NCBI GenBank assembly: GCA_963720695.1
Contig: CAVRGG010000001.1
Location: 804,299 to 868,298, forward strand
Origin: an uncultured Acidimicrobiaceae bacterium
GTDB lineage: Bacteria; Actinomycetota; Acidimicrobiia; Acidimicrobiales; Ilumatobacteraceae
Direction: 5' to 3'
Length of the DNA: 64,000 nt
Program-made: the position numbers and the translations under genes
Shown here: positions 21,059 through 49,264 of the stretch, one piece after another
Layout: each line of letters starts with the position of its first letter
How positions within the stretch are numbered: position 1 is the stretch's first letter
The notes under the pieces: generated by a model
Database searches by the model: none
The model's input: only the letters and a program-made list of their open reading frames with translations
What the model was told of the DNA's origin: nothing

Positions 21059-21937
21059 ATGGCCACGGCCAAGAAGGCACCCGCGAAGAAGGCCCCTGCC
21101 AAGAAGGCGGCCCCGGCCAAGAAGGCACCCGCGAAGAAGGCGGCCCCGGCGAAGAAAGCCGCCCCGGTCAAGAAGGCAGCGCCCGCCAAGAAGGCCCCTG
21201 CCAAGAAGGCAGCGCCCGTGAAGAAGGCAGCGCCCGCCAAGAAGGCCCCTGCCACGAAGGCAGCGCCCGTGAAGAAGGCGGCCCCGGCGAAGAAGGCAGC
21301 CCCGGTCAAGAAGGCAGCGCCCGCGAAGAAGGCTGCCACGCCCGCAAAGAAGGCTGCCGCCCCCGTGAAGAAGGTCGCCCCGCCGAAGAAGGCTGCGGCC
21401 AAGAAGACCGCCCCGACGAAGGCTGTCCCGGCGAAGGCTGTGCCGACGAAGGCCCCTGCGGCGAAGGCGGCCCCGGCCAAGAAGGCTGCGGCCGTTGGCA
21501 AGGTCGTGCCGGACAAGCCCGTGGTTCGCGGCGTCACCAAGGAAGGCATCGCCTACACCAAGGACTTCGATGCCAAGTTCCTCACGGCGCAGCGCGCGCT
21601 GCTGCTGCAGGAGAAGGCATCGCTGGTCGGTCAGGCGGATCGCCTCGAGGACGAGGCTCATCAGCTCATCGAGGAGCAGGAGATGGGCGACGTGCAGTTC
21701 GACGACGAGGGCGGCGAGGGCGACACCATGGTCGTCGAGCGGGAGCGCGATCTGGCCCTGAGTGCGCAGGCGCGCCAGACGGTCGCCGACATCGAGGCCG
21801 CCCTGCTCAGGTTGCTCGACGGGACGTACGGCTACTCGATCGAATCGGGTCGTCCGATCTCTCGTGAGCGGCTCGAGGCCATCCCGTGGGCAACGGTCCT
21901 CGTCGAGGAGAAGGTCGGCGGGATCGGTCGCCGATGA
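21059..21937 (+). CDS. Histone-H1-like Lys/Ala/Pro-repeat N-terminus fused to a Cys-less DksA/TraR-like C-terminal domain (DdbA-like by synteny)
   Basis: About 145 aa of AKKAAP-type repeats, then a coiled coil and DGTYGYSIESGRPISRERLEAIPWATVLVEEK. In that segment the four zinc-finger Cys positions read S, S, L, E. GGAGG lies 9 nt upstream of ATG 21059 (alternative ATG 21050). Sits between ileS and lspA. Confidence 0.75.
   Translation: MATAKKAPAKKAPAKKAAPAKKAPAKKAAPAKKAAPVKKAAPAKKAPAKKAAPVKKAAPAKKAPATKAAPVKKAAPAKKAAPVKKAAPAKKAATPAKKAAAPVKKVAPPKKAAAKKTAPTKAVPAKAVPTKAPAAKAAPAKKAAAVGKVVPDKPVVRGVTKEGIAYTKDFDAKFLTAQRALLLQEKASLVGQADRLEDEAHQLIEEQEMGDVQFDDEGGEGDTMVVERERDLALSAQARQTVADIEAALLRLLDGTYGYSIESGRPISRERLEAIPWATVLVEEKVGGIGRR
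21065..21500 (+). repeat. Degenerate in-frame 15/18-bp repeats encoding (A/P)AKKA(A)P units
   Basis: Reading the translation gives KKAPAKKAAPAKKAAPVKKAAP... Its antisense creates the spurious ORF 20672..21661. Confidence 0.85.
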
Positions 21938-22464
21938 CCGAGGGCGACCTCAGCGACACCGACGCAGCCGACATCACCGAGCCGCAGGCCTCGACCGCGC
22001 AACTCCGCGTCACGTTGTCGATCGCGGCGCTCGTGGTGCTGCTCGATCAAGTCACCAAGCACTGGGCGCTCAACGCCTTGGAGGGCAAGCCACCACAGCA
22101 CGTCATCTGGACGTTGCAGTGGAACCTGTCGTTCAACAGCGGGATGGCGTTCTCCAAGGGTCAGGGAATCGGGCCGGTCATCGGCTTGGCCGCGCTCGTC
22201 GTGGTCGTGGTGATCGCCGTGTCGGTCCGCAGCAATCACAGCCGGATGCTCGCCGTCGCCGCGGGCCTGGTGATGGGTGGCGCACTCGGCAACCTCGCCG
22301 ACCGGATCTTCCGCGGTGAAGGGTGGCTCGACGGGGCCGTCATCGACTTCATCGACTTCCAGTGGTTCCCGATCTTCAACGTGGCCGACATGGGTGTGAA
22401 CGTCGGTGGCGCGCTGTTCGTGCTGTGGACGATCTTCTCCGGCCGAAAGGCGTCACGATCGTGA
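21934..22464 (+). CDS. lspA: Lipoprotein signal peptidase II
   Basis: LDQVTKHWA, NSGMAFS, GGALGNLADR and FNVADM motifs. ATGA overlap with the upstream gene. Confidence 0.9.
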   Translation: MTEGDLSDTDAADITEPQASTAQLRVTLSIAALVVLLDQVTKHWALNALEGKPPQHVIWTLQWNLSFNSGMAFSKGQGIGPVIGLAALVVVVVIAVSVRSNHSRMLAVAAGLVMGGALGNLADRIFRGEGWLDGAVIDFIDFQWFPIFNVADMGVNVGGALFVLWTIFSGRKASRS

Positions 22465-44114: not shown

Positions 44115-45656
44115 TCAGCGGACCTTGCACTTGATCGTGTGGTAGCCGGTGGCACCGTCGGGTGCGACGGGGGTGCGCTCCTCGGTCTGGGTCTCGCCGG
44201 TCTTGTCGGTGGCGCGGACCTCGATCTTGTAGTCACCGGCGGGCGCGTTCCAGTCGAGGACCCACTGGCGCCAGGCGTCGTCGGAGACGTCCGTCGCCAG
44301 CCGCGCCTCCTGCCACTCGCCGCCGTCGATGCGGACTTCGACCTTCTCGATGCCGCGGTGCTGCGCCCAGGCGACGCCGGCGATCTTCTGCGGGCCCGCC
44401 TCGATCGTCTTGCCGTTGCGTGGCACGTCGATGCGCGACTGGGTCTTGATCGGCCCGAGACGACCCCATCCGCGCGGCACCCAGTAACCCTGCTGATCCC
44501 ATGTCGTCAGCTCGATCTTGCTCAACCACTTCGTCGCACTCACGTAGCCGTACAGGCCGGGCACGACCAGGCGCGCCGGATAGCCGTGCTCGAGGGGGAG
44601 CGTGGCGCCGTTCATCCCGACCGCGATCATCGCATCGCGACCGTCGAACGCCGCCTCGACGGGGAACCCGCACGTCCAGCCGTCCTGGCTGGTGCTGTAG
44701 ACCTGCTCGGCGCTGTCCTGCACGCCGGCACGGTCGAGGATGTCCTGGAGCAGCACGCCGCGCCACACGGCGTTCCCGATGTAGGGACCGCCCACGTCGT
44801 TCGACACACAGCACAGGGTGACCACCCGCTCGACCTGCGGCATGGCGAGGAGTTCGTCGTAGGTGAAGCTGTAGGGCGAATCGACCATCCCCTTGATCTC
44901 GCACTTCCACTTCGCCGCATCGACGCGGGGGAAGGAGAGTGCGGTGTCGATGCGATAGAAGTCCGAGTTCGGCGTGACGAACGGCGACGTCGGGCTGAGC
45001 GTCGCGGCATCGGGCACCGCAGGGATCGTGTCCACAGCACCCGCCGTGGGCAGGGGCGCCTTGGTGGCCTCGCGGATGTCGGAGATCCGGCGGTTGTCCA
45101 GTGCACGCGCCACCCCGCCGGCGGCGGCCGCGGCGATCGTGGCTGCACCGCTCGTCGCCAGGAATCGACGGCGATCCCAGCCGAGCGGCGCTTTGGACGG
45201 TCCGGGCGTCTCGATCGGCTTGGGCTGGAGCGCACGATGGAGCACGACGCCGCCGAGCAGAGCACCGAGCAGGCTGGGCACCGCAGCGCCCGCGCCTTCG
45301 CCGGGCCGGTGCATCGCGGCCACGGCGCCGACGAGTCCGAACACGCCGAAGCCGACCATGCCGACGACGGGCCGCCGTACGGACGCGATGCCCAGACCCA
45401 CGGCGGCGACGGCGAGGATGCTGATGATCCCCACGCGCAGGGCGAGCTTGTCGTTGGAGCCGAAGGTGTCGATGGCGAACTGCTTGACCCACCGTGGGAC
45501 TCGGTCGATGACCTCGCTCCCGACGGCGTCGATGGGCGAGACGACGTCGGTGATCGCCGCGACGAGCATGCCCGTCGTGACGGCGAGCGCGCCGGAGACG
45601 AAGCCGGCGATGGCTCCGATGGATCTGCTCGGGGTACCGGGTGATGAGGTGTTCAT
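44115..45656 (-). CDS. Membrane-anchored molybdopterin-dependent oxidoreductase (sulfite-oxidase fold)
   Basis: About 190-aa multi-TM N-terminus. Moco domain (FYRIDTA, TLCCVSNDVGG, HGYPARLVVPGLYG) and an Ig-like dimerisation domain. ATG overlaps the kinase stop (ATGA). Confidence 0.8.
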   Translation of the reverse strand: MNTSSPGTPSRSIGAIAGFVSGALAVTTGMLVAAITDVVSPIDAVGSEVIDRVPRWVKQFAIDTFGSNDKLALRVGIISILAVAAVGLGIASVRRPVVGMVGFGVFGLVGAVAAMHRPGEGAGAAVPSLLGALLGGVVLHRALQPKPIETPGPSKAPLGWDRRRFLATSGAATIAAAAAGGVARALDNRRISDIREATKAPLPTAGAVDTIPAVPDAATLSPTSPFVTPNSDFYRIDTALSFPRVDAAKWKCEIKGMVDSPYSFTYDELLAMPQVERVVTLCCVSNDVGGPYIGNAVWRGVLLQDILDRAGVQDSAEQVYSTSQDGWTCGFPVEAAFDGRDAMIAVGMNGATLPLEHGYPARLVVPGLYGYVSATKWLSKIELTTWDQQGYWVPRGWGRLGPIKTQSRIDVPRNGKTIEAGPQKIAGVAWAQHRGIEKVEVRIDGGEWQEARLATDVSDDAWRQWVLDWNAPAGDYKIEVRATDKTGETQTEERTPVAPDGATGYHTIKCKVR

Positions 45657-46855
45657 GAGTGCTCCTTCGGGGGGAACCAGAGTCGGATGTCGCCGCCGGG
45701 ACCGTCGCCCAACCACGCACGGCCGCCGTGCTGCTGCACGAGGGCGCGAGTGATGGCGAGGCCCAGGCCGGCATGACCGGTGCGGGTCGTACGGGCCGGG
45801 TCGGCGCGGGTGAACGGGTCGAATGCGTGGGCACGGAAGTCGGCGGGAAAGCCGGGTCCGTCGTCGAGGATGCGCACCGAGACTCCGTCGGCAGCCGTGG
45901 TGACGCTGAGTCGGACGTTGCCGTCGGCGACGCAGTGCCCGATGGCGTTCTCGATCGGATTGCGCAAGACCCGACCGATGTCGAGTGCGGTGGCGTTCAC
46001 GAAGGCCGGCCCGTCGGACGTGAGATGCAGGTGGACCCCGCGGCGCTCGGCCAGGGGGGTGAGTGCTTCGACCGCCTCGTGGGCGACCTCGGCCACCGAG
46101 ACGGTCTCGGTCGCGCTCGGCCGGGCACCAGCCTCGATGCGCGCGTACTCGACGAGTTGATCGAGCAGCGCTTCCACGTTGATCAGTTCGTTGCCGATGA
46201 TCCCCATGTATCGGTCGGGATCGGTGGCGACGCCGTCCTGAAGGCTCTCCACGGCCGCCCGAATGGCAGCGAGTGGGGTGCGCAGATCGTGGCCGACGCT
46301 CGTGAAGAGCATCTGCCGGGCAGCGCCGAGTCGCTCGCGCTCCACGGCGGCGTCGTGCAGCGTCGACACCATCTCGTCGACGGCGGCGGCGGTGCGCCCG
46401 ACCTCGTCGACGCGCCGGATCCCGGTGCGCACGGTGAGATCACCGGCTGCGACCTGTTCGGCCACCTCGCCGAGACGGGCGATGTCGCGGGCGAGGGGCC
46501 GGGTCAGTTGCGTGCCGACCACCAGCGCGATCCCGCACGACAGGATCAGCACGACCAGGAACAACCGATAGTCGTGCGAGGAGAGGAACATCGCGTTCGA
46601 TGCGGCGGAGGTGGTGACGGCGCCGAGCGCGAGCGAGCACAACCCGACCACGAGAGCGGCACCGGCCACGCTCGCCCTGCTCGACACCCACCGGCGCAGC
46701 AGCGGGACGAGGGCGGCCGCCACCACGGCCGGAGCGGCGAGGATGATGATGAGGTGCAACCGTTCGTCGCCGTTCGGCGGCTGGAGGAGCACTTCGGCGA
46801 GGACGATGGCGCCGAGGACCAGGCCGGTCAGCCACAGCAGCAGGCGGGCGCTCAT
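45653..46855 (-). CDS. Sensor histidine kinase (2 TM, HAMP, HisKA, HATPase)
   Basis: H-box SVGHDLRTPLAAI, N-box RNPIENAIGH and G-box DDGPGF...GLGLAI. ATGA overlaps on both sides. Confidence 0.9.
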   Translation of the reverse strand: MSARLLLWLTGLVLGAIVLAEVLLQPPNGDERLHLIIILAAPAVVAAALVPLLRRWVSSRASVAGAALVVGLCSLALGAVTTSAASNAMFLSSHDYRLFLVVLILSCGIALVVGTQLTRPLARDIARLGEVAEQVAAGDLTVRTGIRRVDEVGRTAAAVDEMVSTLHDAAVERERLGAARQMLFTSVGHDLRTPLAAIRAAVESLQDGVATDPDRYMGIIGNELINVEALLDQLVEYARIEAGARPSATETVSVAEVAHEAVEALTPLAERRGVHLHLTSDGPAFVNATALDIGRVLRNPIENAIGHCVADGNVRLSVTTAADGVSVRILDDGPGFPADFRAHAFDPFTRADPARTTRTGHAGLGLAITRALVQQHGGRAWLGDGPGGDIRLWFPPKEHS

Positions 46856-47547
46856 GGCTCGAACCTGTACCCGACACCCCACACGGTGGTGATCCAGCGC
46901 GGCTCGTCGGGATTCGTCTCGATCTTGTTGCGAAGGCGGCGCACGTGCACCGTGACCGTGGCCGGGTCCTGGAAGTCGGGCGAGGAGTCCCACACGTGCT
47001 GGAGGAGCTGGGCGCGCGAGAACACCTGCCGCGGCGCTTGGGCCATGAAGGCGAGGACGTCGAACTCCTTCGCCGTCAGCGACGCGGTGACGGCACCGGG
47101 CCCGGTCCCGACGGTGACCTCTCGGGCCTTCAGATCGACCTGCAATCCGTCGAACTGCAACACGTCGACGGCGGTGGGTGTCGACTGTGCCCGGCGCAAG
47201 ACGCTGCGGACGCGGGCGGTGAGCTCGCGGGGCGAGAACGGCTTGGTGACGTAGTCGTCGGCACCCAACTCGAGTCCGAGCACGCGGTCGGCCTCGTCCA
47301 CTCGCGCCGTGAGGAGGATCACCGGCACCCTGTTCGGGCCGCTGCGGCGCAGGAAGTCGAGGCCGGAGGCGCCCGGCAGCATCACGTCGAGCACGACGAG
47401 ATCCGGTTGGAACTTGGTGACCGCGTCGTCGACGGCATCGCCGCGATCGAGCTCCATGACCTCGTAGCCGTCACGCTGGAGATACTGCGCGACGACCTCA
47501 CGAACCGTCGGTTCGTCGTCGACCACCAGGATGCGGGGTGCTGCCAT
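46852..47547 (-). CDS. OmpR/PhoB-family response regulator
   Basis: ILVVDDEP...DLVVLDVMLPG receiver domain and a winged-helix domain (VWGVGYRF). The real start at 47547 lies inside ORF 46852..48165. Confidence 0.9.
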   Translation of the reverse strand: MAAPRILVVDDEPTVREVVAQYLQRDGYEVMELDRGDAVDDAVTKFQPDLVVLDVMLPGASGLDFLRRSGPNRVPVILLTARVDEADRVLGLELGADDYVTKPFSPRELTARVRSVLRRAQSTPTAVDVLQFDGLQVDLKAREVTVGTGPGAVTASLTAKEFDVLAFMAQAPRQVFSRAQLLQHVWDSSPDFQDPATVTVHVRRLRNKIETNPDEPRWITTVWGVGYRFEP

Positions 47548-47584
47548 CGCCGCACACCATACGGAGGATGCGAACCCCTGTGAA

Positions 47585-47612
47585 TGGATGTGCAGGAGAG
47601 TTTCGTGGATGT
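47585..47612 (+). promoter_or_regulatory. Direct repeat TGGATGT-N14-TGGATGT in the divergent intergenic region (candidate response-regulator site)
   Basis: TGGATGT occurs at 47585..47591 and 47606..47612, 21 bp centre to centre, between the regulator gene and the lipoprotein operon. Confidence 0.3.
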
Positions 47613-47711
47613 TTCTCGGTCCGTCGCCACACCGAAAGGCCTGCATCTGATCATCGTGGTGCGAACGACGACCCTGTTGCTTCGCACCGACCCGACGAAC
47701 TGGAGACCTCC

Positions 47712-47972
47712 GTGAACGTTCCCCACCGCCTGATCCTGCTGCCCTTGCTCGCCGTGAGCACGATGAGCATCGCCGCCTGTGGCAGCGACAGCACCAAGAG
47801 CCCCGCCACCCCGACCACCGATGCGATGATGACCGACACCACCGATGCGATGATGACCGACACCACCGATGCGATGATGACCGACACCACGGACGCGATG
47901 ATGACCGACACCACCGATGCGATGATGACCGACACCACGGACGCGATGATGACCGAGACGACGGGCGGCTGA
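47712..47972 (+). CDS. Small Met-rich repeat lipoprotein: signal peptide + lipobox + (DAMMTDTT)x6
   Basis: GTG 47712 with GGAGA 5 nt upstream. LILLPLLAVSTMSIAAC lipobox. Mature part is CGSDSTKSPATPTT + 6 octapeptide repeats + GG. Confidence 0.6.
   Translation: MNVPHRLILLPLLAVSTMSIAACGSDSTKSPATPTTDAMMTDTTDAMMTDTTDAMMTDTTDAMMTDTTDAMMTDTTDAMMTETTGG
47820..47963 (+). repeat. Six tandem copies of a 24-bp unit gatgcgatgatgaccgacaccacc
   Basis: Copies 1 and 2 are identical. Copies 3+4 and 5+6 share the acg|gac junction, suggesting a 48-bp duplication. Copy 6 is diverged (gagacgacg). Confidence 0.95.
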
Positions 47973-47975
47973 GCG

Positions 47976-48596
47976 ATGAGCACCAAGGCCCGGTGGGCCA
48001 TGCTCGCCGTGCTGCTGGTCGGTGCGGTGGTCGCCGTGTCGGTGAGCCACCGCACCAAACCCGATCAGGTGTCGGGGGCGGCGGGTGACGCTGTCCGTCC
48101 CGTGGTGCTCGAGCAGGACCTCCCGGTGCTCGATCCCGGACCGCTGCCGTCCGTCGCAGGTGCAACGGGGTGGATCAACACCGATCCGCTGACGAGCGCC
48201 TCCCTGCACGGCTCGGTGGTGCTCGTGGACTTCTGGACGTTCGGTTGCATCAACTGCCAGCACACGCTCTCCCATGTGAAGGCGTGGTACGACCGCTACG
48301 CGGCGGACGGTCTCGTGATCCTCGGCGTGCACACGCCCGAGTTCTCGTACGAGGCCGACCCCGCCAACGTCCAGGACTACGTGACCCGCGAGGGCATCAC
48401 CTACCCGGTGGCACTCGACCCCGACATGACGATCTGGCATGCATGGAACAACCACGCATGGCCAGGCTTCTATCTCTACGACACCGACGGGCAACTGCGC
48501 CTCAAGCACCTCGGTGAGGGCCGCTACGACATGACCGAGGACTCGATCCGGGCCCTGCTCGGCGTCGATCCCGCCAGCCCGAGAGCCGACGTGTGA
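47976..48596 (+). CDS. Membrane-anchored TlpA/ResA-like thiol:disulfide oxidoreductase (redoxin)
   Basis: N-terminal TM helix and the thioredoxin motif WTFGCINC. Begins 3 nt after the lipoprotein stop. Confidence 0.85.
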   Translation: MSTKARWAMLAVLLVGAVVAVSVSHRTKPDQVSGAAGDAVRPVVLEQDLPVLDPGPLPSVAGATGWINTDPLTSASLHGSVVLVDFWTFGCINCQHTLSHVKAWYDRYAADGLVILGVHTPEFSYEADPANVQDYVTREGITYPVALDPDMTIWHAWNNHAWPGFYLYDTDGQLRLKHLGEGRYDMTEDSIRALLGVDPASPRADV

Positions 48597-49264
48597 GCTC
48601 GTTCGCCGTCGCGGCCGTGGCGCTCTACGGCGCCGGCGTGGCCGCGTCGGCGAGCCCGTGCGTGCTGCCGCTCGTCCCCGGCTACCTCGGCGTGCTCGCC
48701 GATGCCGATGGGCGGCCCGGTCGCACGGGACGAGTGGCGATCTTCGCTGCGTCGGCGGTCACGACGTTCGCGATCCTGGGATCGCTCGTGGCGGCGTTCG
48801 GCTCGGTGGTGCACACCACGGTTGCCCTGCAACGGGTCGCCGGTGCGCTGCTGCTCGTCTGCGCGGCGGCAGCCCTGGCGACCCACTTCGGTCGCCTGCA
48901 GCAGAGTTGGCGGATCCCGGTCGCGATTCCGGCGTCGCCGGTCCCTCGTGCAGTCGCGCTCGGGGTGGGCTGCGGAGCTGCATGGACACCGTGTGTCGGT
49001 CCGCTCCTGGGTGCGGCGTTGACCGCGGCAGGCGGCGTGGGTTCGGTGTCTCGTGGTGCCCTGCTGCTGGCCGCGTTCGGCATGGGCGTGGTGACGCCGC
49101 TCGTCGCGATCGCCATCCTGCCGTTGCCGAAGGTGCCGGCCTCATGGCGTCGCATCGGCCGGGCGGCGAACATCGCCACGCCGGCGGTGCTGGCAGTGGT
49201 CGGTCTCGTCCTGCTGTTCGGGTGGTACGGGCCGCTGGTTCAGCGGTTGCCGACGGGCACGTAG
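48593..49264 (+). CDS. ccdA: Cytochrome c biogenesis/thiol-reductant transporter CcdA (DsbD family)
   Basis: Conserved SPCVLPLVP and TPCVGP cysteines and six TM helices. GTGA overlap with the thioredoxin gene. Confidence 0.85.
   Translation: MSSFAVAAVALYGAGVAASASPCVLPLVPGYLGVLADADGRPGRTGRVAIFAASAVTTFAILGSLVAAFGSVVHTTVALQRVAGALLLVCAAAALATHFGRLQQSWRIPVAIPASPVPRAVALGVGCGAAWTPCVGPLLGAALTAAGGVGSVSRGALLLAAFGMGVVTPLVAIAILPLPKVPASWRRIGRAANIATPAVLAVVGLVLLFGWYGPLVQRLPTGT

What the first reader, a model, noticed from the sequence alone, without database searches (positions are those of the whole stretch)
47712..47972. 86-aa lipoprotein made of six DAMMTDTT octapeptide repeats (12 Met in 64 mature residues)
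After a canonical signal peptide and lipobox (MSIAAC), the mature protein is CGSDSTKSPATPTT-(DAMMTDTT)x6-GG. It contains only D, A, M and T in the repeats, with no His, no further Cys and no aromatic residues. Such a composition is not a folded domain. It looks like a tethered, disordered, Met-dense and acidic brush on the membrane surface. Candidate roles are an oxidant sink (Met to Met-O), a Cu(I)/Ag(I) thioether ligand array, or a substrate or decoy for the neighbouring redox proteins. The ORF has a good RBS (GGAGA, 5 nt spacing) and sits 3 nt upstream of the thioredoxin gene, which argues it is translated.
Basis: partly seen in the sequence, partly recalled or inferred. Interest (0 to 1): 0.65.

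Follow-up and report, generated by a model that had tools for sequence, protein, structure and literature searches.

The report
Methionine-rich lipoprotein, likely oxidant sink
A real, conserved small gene in an uncultured Acidimicrobiia bacterium encodes a membrane-tethered, unstructured, methionine-packed protein that most likely soaks up oxidants at the cell surface and is recycled by neighbouring redox enzymes, a single-membrane counterpart of the MrpX system of Gram-negative bacteria.

Summary
Window 47712-47972(+) is a GTG-start ORF for a signal peptide with a lipobox (SIAA|C), followed by six in-frame 24-nt repeats (DAMMTDTT) and GG. Mature Met content is 18.75%, against 2.2% in other window proteins.

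It is a gene. About 120 cluster representatives worldwide are short lipoproteins with Met/acidic/Thr repeats. Only this frame is open in all homologous loci. The GGAG Shine-Dalgarno sequence, the GTG start and the tight junction with the next gene are conserved.

It leads a lipoprotein / DipZ-like thioredoxin / CcdA operon. A divergent response regulator / histidine kinase / Mo-oxidoreductase operon (Sco3746 type) lies upstream, across a conserved GTTTC-N6-GTTTC box.

The same thioredoxin family in five other phyla sits beside unrelated Met-rich secreted proteins, including MXKDX (MrpX/BcrX) proteins. It also sits beside MsrA/MsrB, MsrP-like Mo enzymes and SigF/NrsF.

Best reading (about 0.55): a lipid-anchored analogue of the MrpX sacrificial methionine sink. 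It is not homologous to MrpX (hhalign probability 0.55%).

Which enzyme re-reduces it is inferred, not shown. No MsrA/B is adjacent, and the Mo enzyme is neither a MsrP equivalog nor equipped with haem ligands.

Cu(I) binding is not excluded. No expression data exist. Verdict: new variant of a known kind.

The parts
47712..47972 (+). Met-rich lipoprotein gene (86 codons including GTG start; stop 47970-47972)
   Evidence: Family of homologues. It is the only frame open in all homologous loci, and its GC3 is 0.92.
47712..47780 (+). Signal peptide (aa 1-22: positive n-region H5/R6, hydrophobic core LILLPLLAVSTMSIAA) with lipobox S-I-A-A|C; Cys23 codon at 47778-47780
   Evidence: Read from the sequence. 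Hydropathy peak at aa 3-21. [AGS]-C-G is kept in all 11 loci compared. A21, C23 and G24 are invariant, and A22 is at least 90% conserved, in alignment A1.
47814..47957 (+). Six 24-nt tandem repeats; in protein phase DAMMTDTT x6 = aa 37-84 (47820-47963)
   Evidence: Tandem Repeats Finder: period 24, 6.0 copies, score 258. Units are listed.
47702..47706 (+). Shine-Dalgarno GGAGA, 5 nt before the GTG start
   Evidence: GGAG followed by GTG is conserved in L001, L002, L004 and L083.
47600..47616 (.). Direct repeat GTTTCG-N5-GTTTCT (11-bp period), candidate binding site of the OmpR-family regulator; it lies between the two divergent operons
   Evidence: Conserved in the window, L001-L004 and L083-L085 while the flanks diverge. 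It is the only exact match in the 64-kb window. Binding itself is inferred.
47556..47584 (-). Promoter-like TTCACA-17-TATGGT for the regulator operon; it predicts a leaderless mRNA
   Evidence: Both hexamers are conserved in the intergenic alignment.
46852..47547 (-). OmpR/PhoB-family response regulator
   Evidence: Pfam Response_reg plus Trans_reg_C. NCBIfam best matches are PhoB/MtrA. The Cu/heavy-metal regulator model scores 154 bits against a cutoff of 279.
45653..46855 (-). Histidine kinase (4 TM helices, tiny outer loops, HAMP-HisKA-HATPase); ATGA overlap with the regulator stop
   Evidence: The loop SAASNAMF, with a Met conserved in all aligned homologues, is shown.
44115..45656 (-). 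Membrane-anchored Mo oxidoreductase of the sulfite-oxidase fold (4 TM helices, then RRRF and a weakly hydrophobic TMD5, then a MoCo domain and an Ig-like domain); ATGA overlap with the kinase stop
   Evidence: Pfam Oxidored_molyb 1.4e-46. PDB and NCBIfam comparisons. Junction. TM helices and RR motif. The architecture matches Sco3746 in PMC5449189.
47976..48596 (+). Membrane-anchored thioredoxin-like protein (one N-terminal TM helix, CINC active site), DipZ-type
   Evidence: Pfam AhpC-TSA/Redoxin. Best solved relative is M. tuberculosis DipZ 2hyx, E = 4.7e-40, then SOQ1. TM helix and Cys91/Cys94.
48593..49264 (+). CcdA (DsbD_TM) thiol-electron transporter; GTGA overlap with the thioredoxin gene stop
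   Evidence: Pfam DsbD_TM. Junction. Both P-C motifs are present.

Best explanation
The ORF is a genuine gene for a small lipoprotein. After Sec export, lipidation at Cys23 and cleavage by LspA, a 64-residue chain stays tethered to the outer face of the cytoplasmic membrane. The chain is non-globular and strongly acidic, and carries 12 thioether side chains. I propose that it is the monoderm (single-membrane) counterpart of the periplasmic methionine-rich peptide MrpX/BcrX. Its Met residues would be sacrificially oxidised to Met sulfoxide by hypochlorite, chloramines, peroxides or similar oxidants at the cell surface. This would spare essential envelope proteins and lipids. The sulfoxides would then be reduced again by the extracytoplasmic redox machinery encoded around it. 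That machinery is the Tat-exported, membrane-anchored Mo enzyme of the sulfite-oxidase fold, and/or a thiol route from cytoplasmic thioredoxin through CcdA to the DipZ-like thioredoxin and on to an Msr. A lipid anchor replaces the outer membrane as the means of keeping the sink at the cell. Expression is probably controlled by the divergently encoded two-component system through the conserved GTTTC-N6-GTTTC box. Shown here: the gene structure, the lipobox, the repeat, the conserved family, the operon junctions, the conserved box, and the recurrent gene neighbourhood. Inferred: translation in vivo, oxidation of the Met residues, which enzyme re-reduces them, and the inducing signal.
For: 1) It is coding.
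- A word-based search found 18 homologues. A profile search of 1.84 billion representatives found 121 (15 at E <= 1e-10). Of the 130 retrieved proteins, 93 are short lipoproteins, with median Met 10%, D+E 23%, T+S 28% and almost no K/R, Cys or aromatics.
- Repeat units differ between members (DAMMTDTT, TEVMTEKT, DAMMPHTT, TEAMTDES, DGSMMEEKTT, DKMDDKMT), but all keep Met.
- Only the annotated frame is open in all homologous loci.
- The Shine-Dalgarno sequence and the GTG start are conserved.
- LspA is encoded in the window.

2) Operon structure.
- There is a 3-nt gap to the thioredoxin gene and a GTGA overlap between the thioredoxin gene and ccdA. The regulator, kinase and Mo-enzyme genes are joined by ATGA overlaps.

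3) Linkage from both directions.
- Loci fetched through the thioredoxin gene (L001-L005, L011, L017) carry a Met-rich lipoprotein next to it.
- Family members fetched by their own sequence lie in the same module in L083-L087, L089 and L090. L089 and L011 have Mo-enzyme / thioredoxin / CcdA / lipoprotein on one strand, with 4-nt overlaps joining the first three genes in L089.

4) Cross-phylum recurrence.
- At least 29 of 80 loci carrying this thioredoxin family have a secreted Met-rich protein beside it or beside a Mo enzyme. Most of these proteins are unrelated in sequence.
- In Betaproteobacteria the order is two-component system <> cytochrome b / MsrP-related Mo enzyme / MXKDX repeat protein (TIGR02953, 63 bits against a cutoff of 41) / CcdA::thioredoxin fusion / MsrA / MsrB.
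- In Rhodanobacter the Met-rich protein sits with NrsF and an ECF sigma factor, opposite CcdA-thioredoxin and Tat-MsrB.
- MXKDX proteins in these loci are 19-23% Met. MrpX is 20% Met (PMC4436054). The window protein is 18.75% Met.

5) Experimental precedent.
- MrpX is induced and oxidised by hypochlorite and is encoded with YedYZ.
- BcrX-BcrQP in Brucella is under an ECF sigma factor.
- c3566-c3568 in UPEC (uropathogenic E. coli) is under the OrhKR two-component system.
- ModRS-trx-ccdA-msrAB is described in Fusobacterium.
- The SOQ1 thioredoxin domain, the second-best solved relative of the window thioredoxin, feeds a Met-sulfoxide-reducing domain.

6) Structure.
- The AlphaFold2 model has mean pLDDT 56.7 and pTM 0.25, so no confident fold.
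Against: - There is no transcript, ribosome-profiling or proteome evidence. The organism is an uncultured MAG, and the only RNA run matched just the conserved CxxC stretch of other organisms.
- No MsrA or MsrB lies in the window or next to the thioredoxin gene in any Acidimicrobiia locus.
- The Mo enzyme is nearer to sulfite dehydrogenases (SorA 2ca3, E = 6e-26) than to MsrP (1xdq, E = 7e-5). It is below every curated NCBIfam cutoff (SorA 140 of 600; MsrP 52 of 207). Its membrane domain has no conserved His for haem b. Its activity and its electron route are therefore unknown.
- The family is not homologous to MrpX (hhalign probability 0.55%), so the functional analogy rests on composition and context.
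- A quarter of family members carry His in each repeat. Met-plus-His motifs are also typical Cu(I) ligands.
- A conserved C-terminal TTGG (24 of 93) is unexpected for a passive sink.
Confidence: 0.55

Rival explanations
1. It is a surface Cu(I)/Ag(I) sponge or chaperone. The thioethers (with His in some relatives) would bind cuprous ions at the membrane surface. The purpose would be detoxification, or hand-over to Cu enzymes whose Cys ligands the TlpA-like thioredoxin keeps reduced, as TlpA does for ScoI/CoxB.
For: The composition fits. Met-rich, acidic, Cys-free segments resemble the Met-rich inserts of CueO/CopA/PcoA (papers listed). Of 93 family members, 25 carry His in the repeats, for example DAMMPHTT, TEMMTHTT and THEMMDD. 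The Chloroflexia variant EAMMDHSA resembles, from my own knowledge, the MDHS-type repeats of Pseudomonas CopA. TlpA-type thioredoxins with CcdA are known players in copper-centre assembly (established knowledge). Copper stress and Met oxidation are linked in E. coli (PMC9302797, listed).
Against: No copper-handling gene (P-type ATPase, CopZ, CopC/D, Sco, PCuAC) was seen in the annotated parts of the window. The one Cu-oxidase_4 hit, 33 kb away in the dcw cluster, is not taken as one: from my own knowledge it is a YfiH-type protein. None was seen in nine independent loci of the family either. The kinase and regulator score well below the heavy-metal two-component models (120 of 293 and 154 of 279 bits) and score better against non-metal models. 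The same thioredoxin family is followed by MsrA/MsrB in 19 of 80 loci, and is accompanied by MrpX-type proteins and SigF/NrsF. MXKDX proteins in msrP operons also contain His, so His does not discriminate.
Confidence: 0.2
2. It is a redox reporter for the two-component system. The oxidation state (or metal load) of the tethered Met-rich chain would be read by the intramembrane-type histidine kinase. The lipoprotein would then be part of the sensor rather than the effector.
For: The lipoprotein tracks a regulator more strictly than it tracks TlpA/CcdA. In L088 it stays between the regulator gene and citrate synthase with TlpA/CcdA absent, and in L081 a relative follows a MarR gene. The kinase has almost no extracytoplasmic domain, only a conserved SAASNAMF loop. 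Accessory lipoproteins that feed signals to kinases are known in general (established knowledge).
Against: Being the first gene downstream of a regulator-controlled promoter is what is expected of the main regulated target, as for mrpX and bcrX. Rapid turnover of repeat sequence and number fits a bulk chemical role better than a specific protein-protein contact. L007 has the two-component system, Mo enzyme, thioredoxin and CcdA without any lipoprotein.
Confidence: 0.08
3. It is a Thr-rich, possibly O-glycosylated, acidic spacer or coat lipoprotein with no redox role. The Met content would be incidental to a repeat that expanded by slippage.
For: Thr is the commonest residue (22 of 64), and the family median for T+S is 28%. 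Some weak family hits contain few or no Met residues (minimum 0%). Tandem 24-nt repeats expand easily, and copy number differs between close relatives.
Against: Met is the residue kept when repeat units are replaced by unrelated ones. Met-rich secreted proteins of unrelated sequence, with no Thr bias, occupy the same genomic position in other phyla. The linkage to redox genes is conserved.
Confidence: 0.07
4. It is not a gene. The region would be a repeat-containing leader or an assembly artefact, or the real ORF would be the antisense one at 47651-48058(-).
For: There are no expression data. High GC keeps four of the five other frames open in the window itself. The antisense ORF has GC3 of 0.88. 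Short-read contigs break in the array.
Against: Every alternative frame has stops in at least one homologous locus, and the annotated frame has none. The signal peptide, lipobox, Shine-Dalgarno sequence and start are conserved over about 50% protein divergence. The antisense frame shares wobble positions, which explains its GC3. No Rfam family reaches threshold.
Confidence: 0.03

Closest known systems
MrpX (Azospira suillum) / BcrX (Brucella) / C3568 (UPEC): periplasmic methionine-rich MXKDX repeat peptides encoded with MsrP/MsrQ-type enzymes
   Same: All are small, secreted, Cys-free repeat proteins without a fold and with about 20% Met (18.75% here). All are encoded next to a sulfite-oxidase-fold Mo enzyme and a dedicated envelope-stress regulator. 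That regulator is a two-component system in UPEC, as here. In other phyla, MXKDX proteins sit beside the very thioredoxin family found in this window.
   Different: There is no sequence homology (no TIGR02953 hit; hhalign probability 0.55%). The repeat is an octapeptide, acidic and Thr-rich, rather than a Lys/Asp-rich pentapeptide. Charged residues are 22% here against 44%. It is a lipoprotein with a lipobox, not a soluble periplasmic peptide. The organism is monoderm. The partner Mo enzyme is a membrane-fused Sco3746-type protein, not MsrP plus MsrQ. A thioredoxin/CcdA pair is co-transcribed.
Extracytoplasmic thioredoxin-CcdA-Msr pathways: S. pneumoniae Etrx1/2-CcdA1/2-MsrAB2, F. nucleatum ModRS-Trx-CcdA-MsrAB, Neisseria PilB
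   Same: A membrane-anchored thioredoxin-fold protein with CxxC sits next to CcdA and a linked two-component system. The predicted role is surface defence against Met oxidation.
   Different: No MsrA/MsrB is in the cluster. A Mo enzyme and a Met-rich lipoprotein are present instead. No Met-rich partner protein was mentioned for those systems in the texts searched (no 'methionine-rich' hit in PMC9239216; reviews).
M. tuberculosis DipZ (PDB 2hyx, 5cyy) and plant SOQ1 (7djj) thioredoxin-like domains
   Same: These are the best solved relatives of the co-transcribed thioredoxin (E = 4.7e-40 and 2.3e-21) and share the C-I-N-C motif. DipZ is a CcdA-thioredoxin fusion like those in L013, L029, L030 and L062. 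The SOQ1 thioredoxin domain, fed by CCDA, drives Met sulfoxide reduction.
   Different: The window protein is a stand-alone thioredoxin domain. It lacks the C-terminal beta-sandwich domain (Thioredoxin_10 / SOQ1-CTD) that carries the reported Msr activity.
Sco3746-type dual Sec/Tat polytopic MoCo proteins (Tooke et al. 2017, PMC5449189)
   Same: The neighbouring Mo enzyme has four hydrophobic TM helices, a twin-arginine motif, a weakly hydrophobic fifth helix and a C-terminal Oxidored_molyb domain.
   Different: The His residues proposed to bind two haems b are not conserved in this clade. The function of the family is unknown.
Met-rich Cu(I)-binding segments of CueO, CopA/PcoA, PcoE/SilE and CusF
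   Same: They are Met-dense, flexible and extracytoplasmic, and some relatives add His.
   Different: There is no copper gene context, and the two-component system is not of the Cu type. Those segments are parts of folded enzymes or soluble proteins, not lipid-anchored repeat peptides.

Membership tests
Bacterial lipoprotein (Lgt/LspA substrate) | N-terminal signal peptide: positively charged n-region, hydrophobic core, lipobox [LVI][ASTVI][GAS]-C with the Cys within about residues 15-35 | tested here: met
   H5/R6, core LILLPLLAVSTMSIAA, I-A-A-C with Cys23. [AGS]-C-G is kept in all 11 loci compared.
Bacterial lipoprotein (Lgt/LspA substrate) | The organism has the lipoprotein-processing machinery | tested here: met
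   Signal peptidase II (PF01252, 3.6e-31) is encoded at window 21886-22464. Lgt was not looked for.
Bacterial lipoprotein (Lgt/LspA substrate) | Acylation of the Cys and globomycin-sensitive cleavage | not testable with these tools
   This needs labelling or mass spectrometry.
MrpX/BcrX = MXKDX pentapeptide repeat protein (TIGR02953) | Match to the family model / MXKDX pentapeptide repeats | tested here: not met
   No NCBIfam hit at E <= 0.001. The positive control, L062 4489-5160, scores 63 bits against a cutoff of 41. Profile-profile probability is 0.55%.
MrpX/BcrX = MXKDX pentapeptide repeat protein (TIGR02953) | Small, exported, Cys-free protein with about 20% Met | tested here: met
   Met is 18.75% of 64 mature residues, and the only Cys is the lipidation site. 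MXKDX proteins have 19-23% Met. MrpX has 20%.
MrpX/BcrX = MXKDX pentapeptide repeat protein (TIGR02953) | Soluble in the periplasm (type I signal peptide) | tested here: not met
   It has a lipobox instead, and the organism is a monoderm Acidimicrobiia.
MrpX/BcrX = MXKDX pentapeptide repeat protein (TIGR02953) | Encoded with a Mo-dependent Met sulfoxide reductase and a dedicated stress regulator | tested here: inconclusive
   A sulfite-oxidase-fold Mo enzyme and a two-component system are adjacent, and this is conserved. However, the Mo enzyme is not a MsrP equivalog.
MrpX/BcrX = MXKDX pentapeptide repeat protein (TIGR02953) | Induced by and oxidised by reactive chlorine species, then re-reduced | not testable with these tools
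   No expression data could be found.
MsrP (YedY) protein-methionine-sulfoxide reductase (neighbouring Mo enzyme) | Score above the curated cutoff of NF003767 | tested here: not met
   51.7 bits against a cutoff of 207. SorA, SoxC and SorT models score higher but are also far below their cutoffs. For PDB 1xdq, E = 6.8e-5.
Sco3746-type dual Sec/Tat MoCo membrane protein (neighbouring Mo enzyme) | Five TM helices with a twin-arginine motif directly before TMD5, and a C-terminal MoCo domain | tested here: met
   Four strong hydropathy peaks, then DRRRFLATSGAATIAAAAAGG, then Oxidored_molyb. The RR motif is conserved in 12 orthologues.
Sco3746-type dual Sec/Tat MoCo membrane protein (neighbouring Mo enzyme) | Conserved His in TMD2-4 for two haems b | tested here: not met
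   There is no conserved His column in the alignment, and L046 has no His in this domain at all.
Thioredoxin-CcdA extracytoplasmic reducing pathway | CcdA with the two P-C motifs; thioredoxin-fold partner with CxxC and a membrane anchor | tested here: met
   CcdA has SPCVLP and TPCVGP. The thioredoxin has C91-I-N-C94 and one N-terminal TM helix. CcdA::thioredoxin fusions occur in L013, L029, L030 and L062.
Thioredoxin-CcdA extracytoplasmic reducing pathway | Adjacent MsrA/MsrB client | tested here: not met
   tblastn finds none in the window or in Acidimicrobiia loci. One is present in 19 loci of other phyla.
Cu(I)-binding Met-rich proteins / copper resistance loci | Linkage to copper-handling genes and a Cu-type two-component system | tested here: not met
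Cu(I)-binding Met-rich proteins / copper resistance loci | Measured Cu(I) affinity | not testable with these tools
   This needs ITC or BCS competition with a synthetic peptide.

The most novel reading that the evidence does not exclude
The six-gene module would be a self-contained extracytoplasmic methionine redox cycle of monoderm bacteria. In it, a haem-less Sco3746-type Mo enzyme acts as a new class of protein-Met-sulfoxide reductase. It would be driven not by quinol/haem b but by thiol electrons (cytoplasmic thioredoxin to CcdA to the DipZ-like thioredoxin). The lipid-anchored poly-Met chain would be its dedicated substrate, docked through the conserved TTGG end. This would assign a function to an orphan Mo-enzyme family found in Actinomycetota and Chloroflexota, and to DipZ-type proteins.
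Probability: 0.12. Interest if true: 0.8.

Novelty: new variant of a known kind. Interest (0 to 1): 0.55.

Why it matters
Sacrificial methionine sinks (MrpX, BcrX) have so far been described only as soluble periplasmic peptides of Proteobacteria. This finding suggests that single-membrane Actinomycetota, and also Chloroflexia, arrived at the same solution independently. They appear to use a lipid anchor in place of an outer membrane to retain the sink.

It also ties together three poorly understood components into one testable envelope-defence module. These are Sco3746-type membrane-fused Mo enzymes, DipZ-type thioredoxins with CcdA, and an intramembrane-type two-component system.

Finally, very different repeat sequences (MXKDX, DAMMTDTT, EAMMDHSA, DGSMMEEKTT) occupy the same genomic position. 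This gives a simple rule for finding such proteins, which annotation pipelines currently leave as 'hypothetical' or do not call at all.

Tried and rejected
- Expression evidence. Two searches of public runs found one sediment DNA run (12% of words) and one soil metatranscriptome. The contigs of the metatranscriptome match only the conserved CxxC stretch of other organisms, so they say nothing about transcription.
- Antisense ORF 47651-48058(-). Rejected. It shares wobble positions with the sense frame, which explains its GC3 of 0.88, and it is interrupted in homologous loci.
- RNA element. Rfam gave only sub-threshold archaeal C/D-box sRNA hits (14-20 bits against 36-45). They are caused by GATGATGA...CTGA inside the repeat.
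- Homology to MrpX. Rejected.
- Codon-position test on the signal peptide. Uninformative: 542/415/547 differences at positions 1/2/3. Signal peptides drift at the amino-acid level while keeping hydrophobicity.
- MsrQ-MsrP fusion reading of the Mo enzyme. Not supported, because there are no conserved haem-ligand His residues and the protein is not a MsrP equivalog.
- Sox-like reading (SoxC Mo enzyme, SoxV = CcdA, SoxS = thioredoxin, SoxY carrier ending in GGCGG). This was considered because of the SoxC score and the GG end. It was rejected because the lipoprotein has no carrier Cys and none of the neighbouring genes annotated here gave a Sox-family match (no dedicated sox search was run).
- Copper island. 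No copper genes were found in the annotated parts of the window or in the related loci (and the Pfam lists).
- Structure prediction. It gave only a low-confidence single helix. A fold search was therefore not run.
Full report
**Observation**

The ORF is exactly as described. GTG at 47712 opens 86 codons that end at TGA 47970-47972. The product has three parts:
- a signal peptide with a lipobox (MNVPHRLILLPLLAVSTMSIAA|C);
- a short Ser/Thr/Pro linker;
- six octapeptide units (five DAMMTDTT, one DAMMTETT) and GG.

Tandem Repeats Finder reports a 24-nt period with 6.0 copies and 94% matches (47814-47956, score 258). The array is in frame, and the units differ only at third codon positions.

The 64-residue mature part is T22 D12 M12 A7 G3 S3 P2 C1 K1 E1, with pI about 4 and charge about -12. 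Twelve Met in 64 residues compares with 2.2% Met in twelve confident proteins of the same window, binomial P = 1.6e-8. GGAGA lies 5 nt before the start, and the stop lies 3 nt before the next gene's ATG.

**Is it a gene?**

Several independent lines say yes.
- A word-based search of 5.8 billion proteins returned 18 small proteins of the same build.
- A profile search of 1.84 billion representatives returned 121 hits, 15 of them at E <= 1e-10.
- Of the 130 retrieved sequences, 93 are short lipoproteins with a median mature length of 55 aa. Their median composition is Met 10%, D+E 23%, T+S 28% and K+R 2%. They have almost no aromatics or extra Cys. His occurs in 25 of them, and 24 end in TTGG.
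- At 18.75% Met, the window protein is near the top of the range (maximum 19.1%).
- Repeat units are replaced freely between members (TEVMTEKT, DAMMPHTT, TEAMTDES, DGSMMEEKTT, DKMDDKMT, EEVMAEPT). Met, acidity and the N-terminal ...AACG(D/S)D persist.
- In the DNA of homologous loci, the annotated frame is the only one of six that is open everywhere. GC3 is 0.81-0.96.
- GGAG followed by GTG is conserved.
- [AGS]-C-G is kept in all 11 loci compared.
- The window encodes signal peptidase II.
- The antisense ORF 47651-48058 is a wobble-sharing shadow.
- Rfam offers nothing above threshold.
- AlphaFold2 with the family alignment gives mean pLDDT 56.7 and pTM 0.25, so no confident fold.

What is missing is direct expression evidence. 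The source is an uncultured Acidimicrobiales-like MAG; the closest relative, L001, has a thioredoxin 94% identical at the amino-acid level. Public runs gave nothing usable. Contigs break inside the array, and L001 has only two units, so the copy number should be taken with caution.

**Local anatomy**

Two divergent operons share a 164-nt intergenic region.

On the + strand:
- the lipoprotein gene;
- after 3 nt, a membrane-anchored thioredoxin-fold protein with one TM helix and C91-I-N-C94;
- after a GTGA overlap, CcdA with both P-C motifs.

On the - strand:
- an OmpR-family regulator;
- after an ATGA overlap, a histidine kinase with four TM helices and minimal loops, one of which (SAASNAMF) carries a Met conserved in all aligned homologues;
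- after another ATGA overlap, a 513-aa Mo oxidoreductase.

The intergenic alignment across eight loci shows a conserved direct repeat, GTTTCG-N5-GTTTCT (47600-47616). It is the only exact match in the window. The alignment also shows a conserved TTCACA-17-TATGGT promoter, which would give a leaderless regulator mRNA. The repeat has the 11-bp period typical of OmpR/PhoB sites. Binding is inferred.

**The neighbours**

The thioredoxin's best solved relatives are M. tuberculosis DipZ (E = 4.7e-40) and then plant SOQ1. A preprint reports that the SOQ1 thioredoxin domain, fed through CCDA, drives Met sulfoxide reduction by the adjacent C-terminal domain. The window protein lacks that C-terminal domain.

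The Mo enzyme has the architecture that Tooke et al. described for Sco3746: four Sec-inserted TM helices, a twin-arginine motif, a weakly hydrophobic fifth helix, and an exported MoCo domain. Three points limit what can be said about it:
- It is closer to sulfite dehydrogenases than to MsrP.
- It falls far below all curated family cutoffs.
- The haem-ligand His residues proposed for Sco3746 are not conserved in this clade.

Its activity and electron route are therefore open.

**Comparative genomics, from both directions**

Eighty loci were fetched through the thioredoxin gene. The near relatives L001-L004 keep the whole arrangement. L005 keeps the lipoprotein, thioredoxin and CcdA genes; its contig begins just upstream of the lipoprotein gene. 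In L007 and L011 the Mo enzyme is directly upstream of thioredoxin-CcdA on the same strand. In L011 and L017 a Met-rich lipoprotein follows CcdA instead of preceding the thioredoxin.

Family members were also fetched by their own exact sequence.
- L083-L086 show the same synteny.
- L087 has the regulator upstream.
- L089 has the regulator, then Mo enzyme / thioredoxin / CcdA / lipoprotein on one strand, with 4-nt overlaps joining the first three genes.
- L090 has CcdA upstream.
- L088 keeps the lipoprotein between the regulator and citrate synthase, without thioredoxin/CcdA.
- L081/L082 place a related lipoprotein behind a MarR gene.

No copper-handling gene appears in any of these neighbourhoods or in the annotated parts of the window.

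**Recurrence across phyla**

At least 29 of the 80 thioredoxin-family loci carry a secreted, Met-rich repeat protein. It lies beside the thioredoxin/CcdA genes or beside a Mo enzyme. The 29 are:
- 7 Acidimicrobiia;
- 3 Chloroflexia, where a lipoprotein with EAMMDHSA or GMMEESAEPS units lies directly upstream of a CcdA::thioredoxin fusion;
- 14 Betaproteobacteria;
- 2 Alphaproteobacteria;
- 1 Rhodanobacter;
- 1 Gemmatimonadales;
- 1 Gracilibacteria.

The screen gave only six unrelated hits in 979 kb.

In Betaproteobacteria the order is two-component system <> cytochrome b / MsrP-related Mo enzyme / MXKDX repeat protein / CcdA::thioredoxin / MsrA / MsrB. The MXKDX protein matches TIGR02953 above its cutoff. 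In Rhodanobacter the Met-rich protein sits with NrsF and an ECF sigma factor, opposite CcdA-thioredoxin and a Tat-MsrB.

MXKDX proteins are the MrpX/BcrX family. In these loci they are 19-23% Met. Overall, MsrA and/or MsrB lie in 19 of the 80 loci, and a sulfite-oxidase-fold Mo enzyme lies in 42.

**Mechanism proposed**

In Azospira, MrpX is induced 20- to 60-fold by chlorite or hypochlorite. It is oxidised on its Met residues and returns to the reduced form. It is encoded with YedY1/YedZ1. The Brucella and UPEC versions are controlled by an ECF sigma factor and a two-component system respectively.

By composition, location and gene company, the window protein fits the same job in a cell without an outer membrane. 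It would be a lipid-tethered, acidic, flexible chain whose thioethers take the first hit from oxidants at the membrane surface and are then re-reduced.

I put this at about 0.55. The identity of the reductase is the weak point, for three reasons:
- No MsrA/B is adjacent.
- The Mo enzyme is an orphan.
- The thioredoxin has no obvious client in the cluster.

The tight operon coupling of Mo enzyme, thioredoxin and CcdA, together with the lack of haem ligands, leaves room for a more novel reading: a thiol-driven Mo-dependent reductase. I rate that at about 0.12.

**Rivals**

- Cu(I)/Ag(I) binding (0.2). It fits the composition, especially the His-bearing relatives. It has no contextual support, and the two-component system is not of the metal type.
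- Sensor-accessory role for the kinase (0.08).
- Inert glycosylated spacer (0.07).
- Not a gene (0.03).

The last three are each argued against in the rival entries. A Sox-like reading (SoxC, SoxV, SoxS and a SoxY-like carrier ending in GG) was considered. It was dropped because the lipoprotein has no carrier Cys and none of the neighbouring genes annotated here gave a Sox-family match.

**Comparison with known systems, and novelty**

Functionally, the closest known system is MrpX/BcrX with MsrPQ. Membership of that family fails on homology, repeat type and solubility.

The thioredoxin/CcdA pair belongs with the Etrx-CcdA-MsrAB and ModRS-Trx-CcdA-MsrAB systems, but it lacks their Msr.

I found no paper describing Met-rich lipoproteins in this context. 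All database homologues are 'hypothetical', and the exact window protein is not in the 15-billion-protein collection.

I therefore class it as a new variant of a known kind. It is interesting mainly for three reasons:
- It extends the sacrificial-methionine idea to monoderm phyla.
- It shows convergent evolution of the sink.
- It gives a testable function to Sco3746-type Mo enzymes and DipZ-type thioredoxins.

Noticed in passing
window 47651-48058 (-): A 135-aa antisense ORF (VVSVIIAS repeats) spans the lipoprotein gene and the start of the thioredoxin gene. Its GC3 is 0.88, which could fool a gene caller. It shares wobble positions with the sense frame and has stops in homologous loci.
   Followed up: yes
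window 47556-47616: A conserved TTCACA-17-TATGGT promoter ends about 9 nt before the regulator's ATG, which implies a leaderless regulator-kinase-Mo-enzyme mRNA. Just upstream lies the conserved GTTTCG-N5-GTTTCT direct repeat, shared by both divergent operons.
   Followed up: partly
window 45653-46855 (-), kinase residues about 85-95: The histidine kinase has four TM helices and almost no extracytoplasmic domain. One tiny loop (SAASNAMF) is nearly invariant, and its Met is conserved even in the distant L011. This recalls, from my own knowledge, Met-based oxidant sensing in E. coli HprS.
   Followed up: partly
window 44115-45656 (-); L046 2005-3579: The Sco3746-type Mo oxidoreductase clade linked to this module has no conserved His in its membrane domain, and the Chloroflexota member has none at all. 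The di-haem model proposed for Sco3746 cannot apply here, so its electron route is unknown.
   Followed up: partly
family-wide (P0001-P0130): 24 of 93 Met-rich lipoproteins end in TTGG, and others end in TTAP, TTDG or TTTP. A conserved C-terminus is unexpected for a passive disordered sink and is unexplained.
   Followed up: no
L088 1-611; L081 7565-8291: There are two variant contexts. In L088 the lipoprotein is kept between the regulator gene and citrate synthase with thioredoxin/CcdA absent. In L081 a related DDMMTDTT lipoprotein lies directly behind a MarR-family regulator and before a Band_7 gene.
   Followed up: partly
L044 2043-2162, 6611-6943, 7492-7611: A Candidatus Gracilibacteria MAG has extremely Met-rich segments (up to 15 Met in 40 aa) fused to thioredoxin-like domains (…HASWCPTCR) and surrounded by several MsrA/MsrB copies. 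These were read with table 11, although this lineage may use another genetic code.
   Followed up: no
L029 5080-5217 and 5218-6588; L030 4946-5157 and 5158-6468: Chloroflexia carry a two-gene module: a Met-rich lipoprotein (EAMMDHSA or GMMEESAEPS units) directly upstream of a CcdA::thioredoxin fusion. No Mo enzyme or Msr is nearby.
   Followed up: partly
window 47822-47996 (+): Rfam gives sub-threshold archaeal C/D-box sRNA hits (14-20 bits) on the repeats, because each unit contains GATGATGA (C-box-like) and the end has CTGA. These are chance matches.
   Followed up: yes
window 3-22464: The first third of the window is a division/cell-wall cluster. In order it carries mraW, a PBP, Mur ligases, ftsW, murB, ftsQ, ftsZ, a YfiH-like gene, a YggS-like gene, sepF and a DivIVA-like gene, followed by ileS and lspA. 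This is ordinary, but lspA is relevant to the lipoprotein call.
   Followed up: partly
window 47843 / 47930 in run X1: Short-read contigs of the only DNA run holding this sequence end inside the 24-nt array. Repeat copy number in metagenome assemblies of this family is therefore unreliable.
   Followed up: partly
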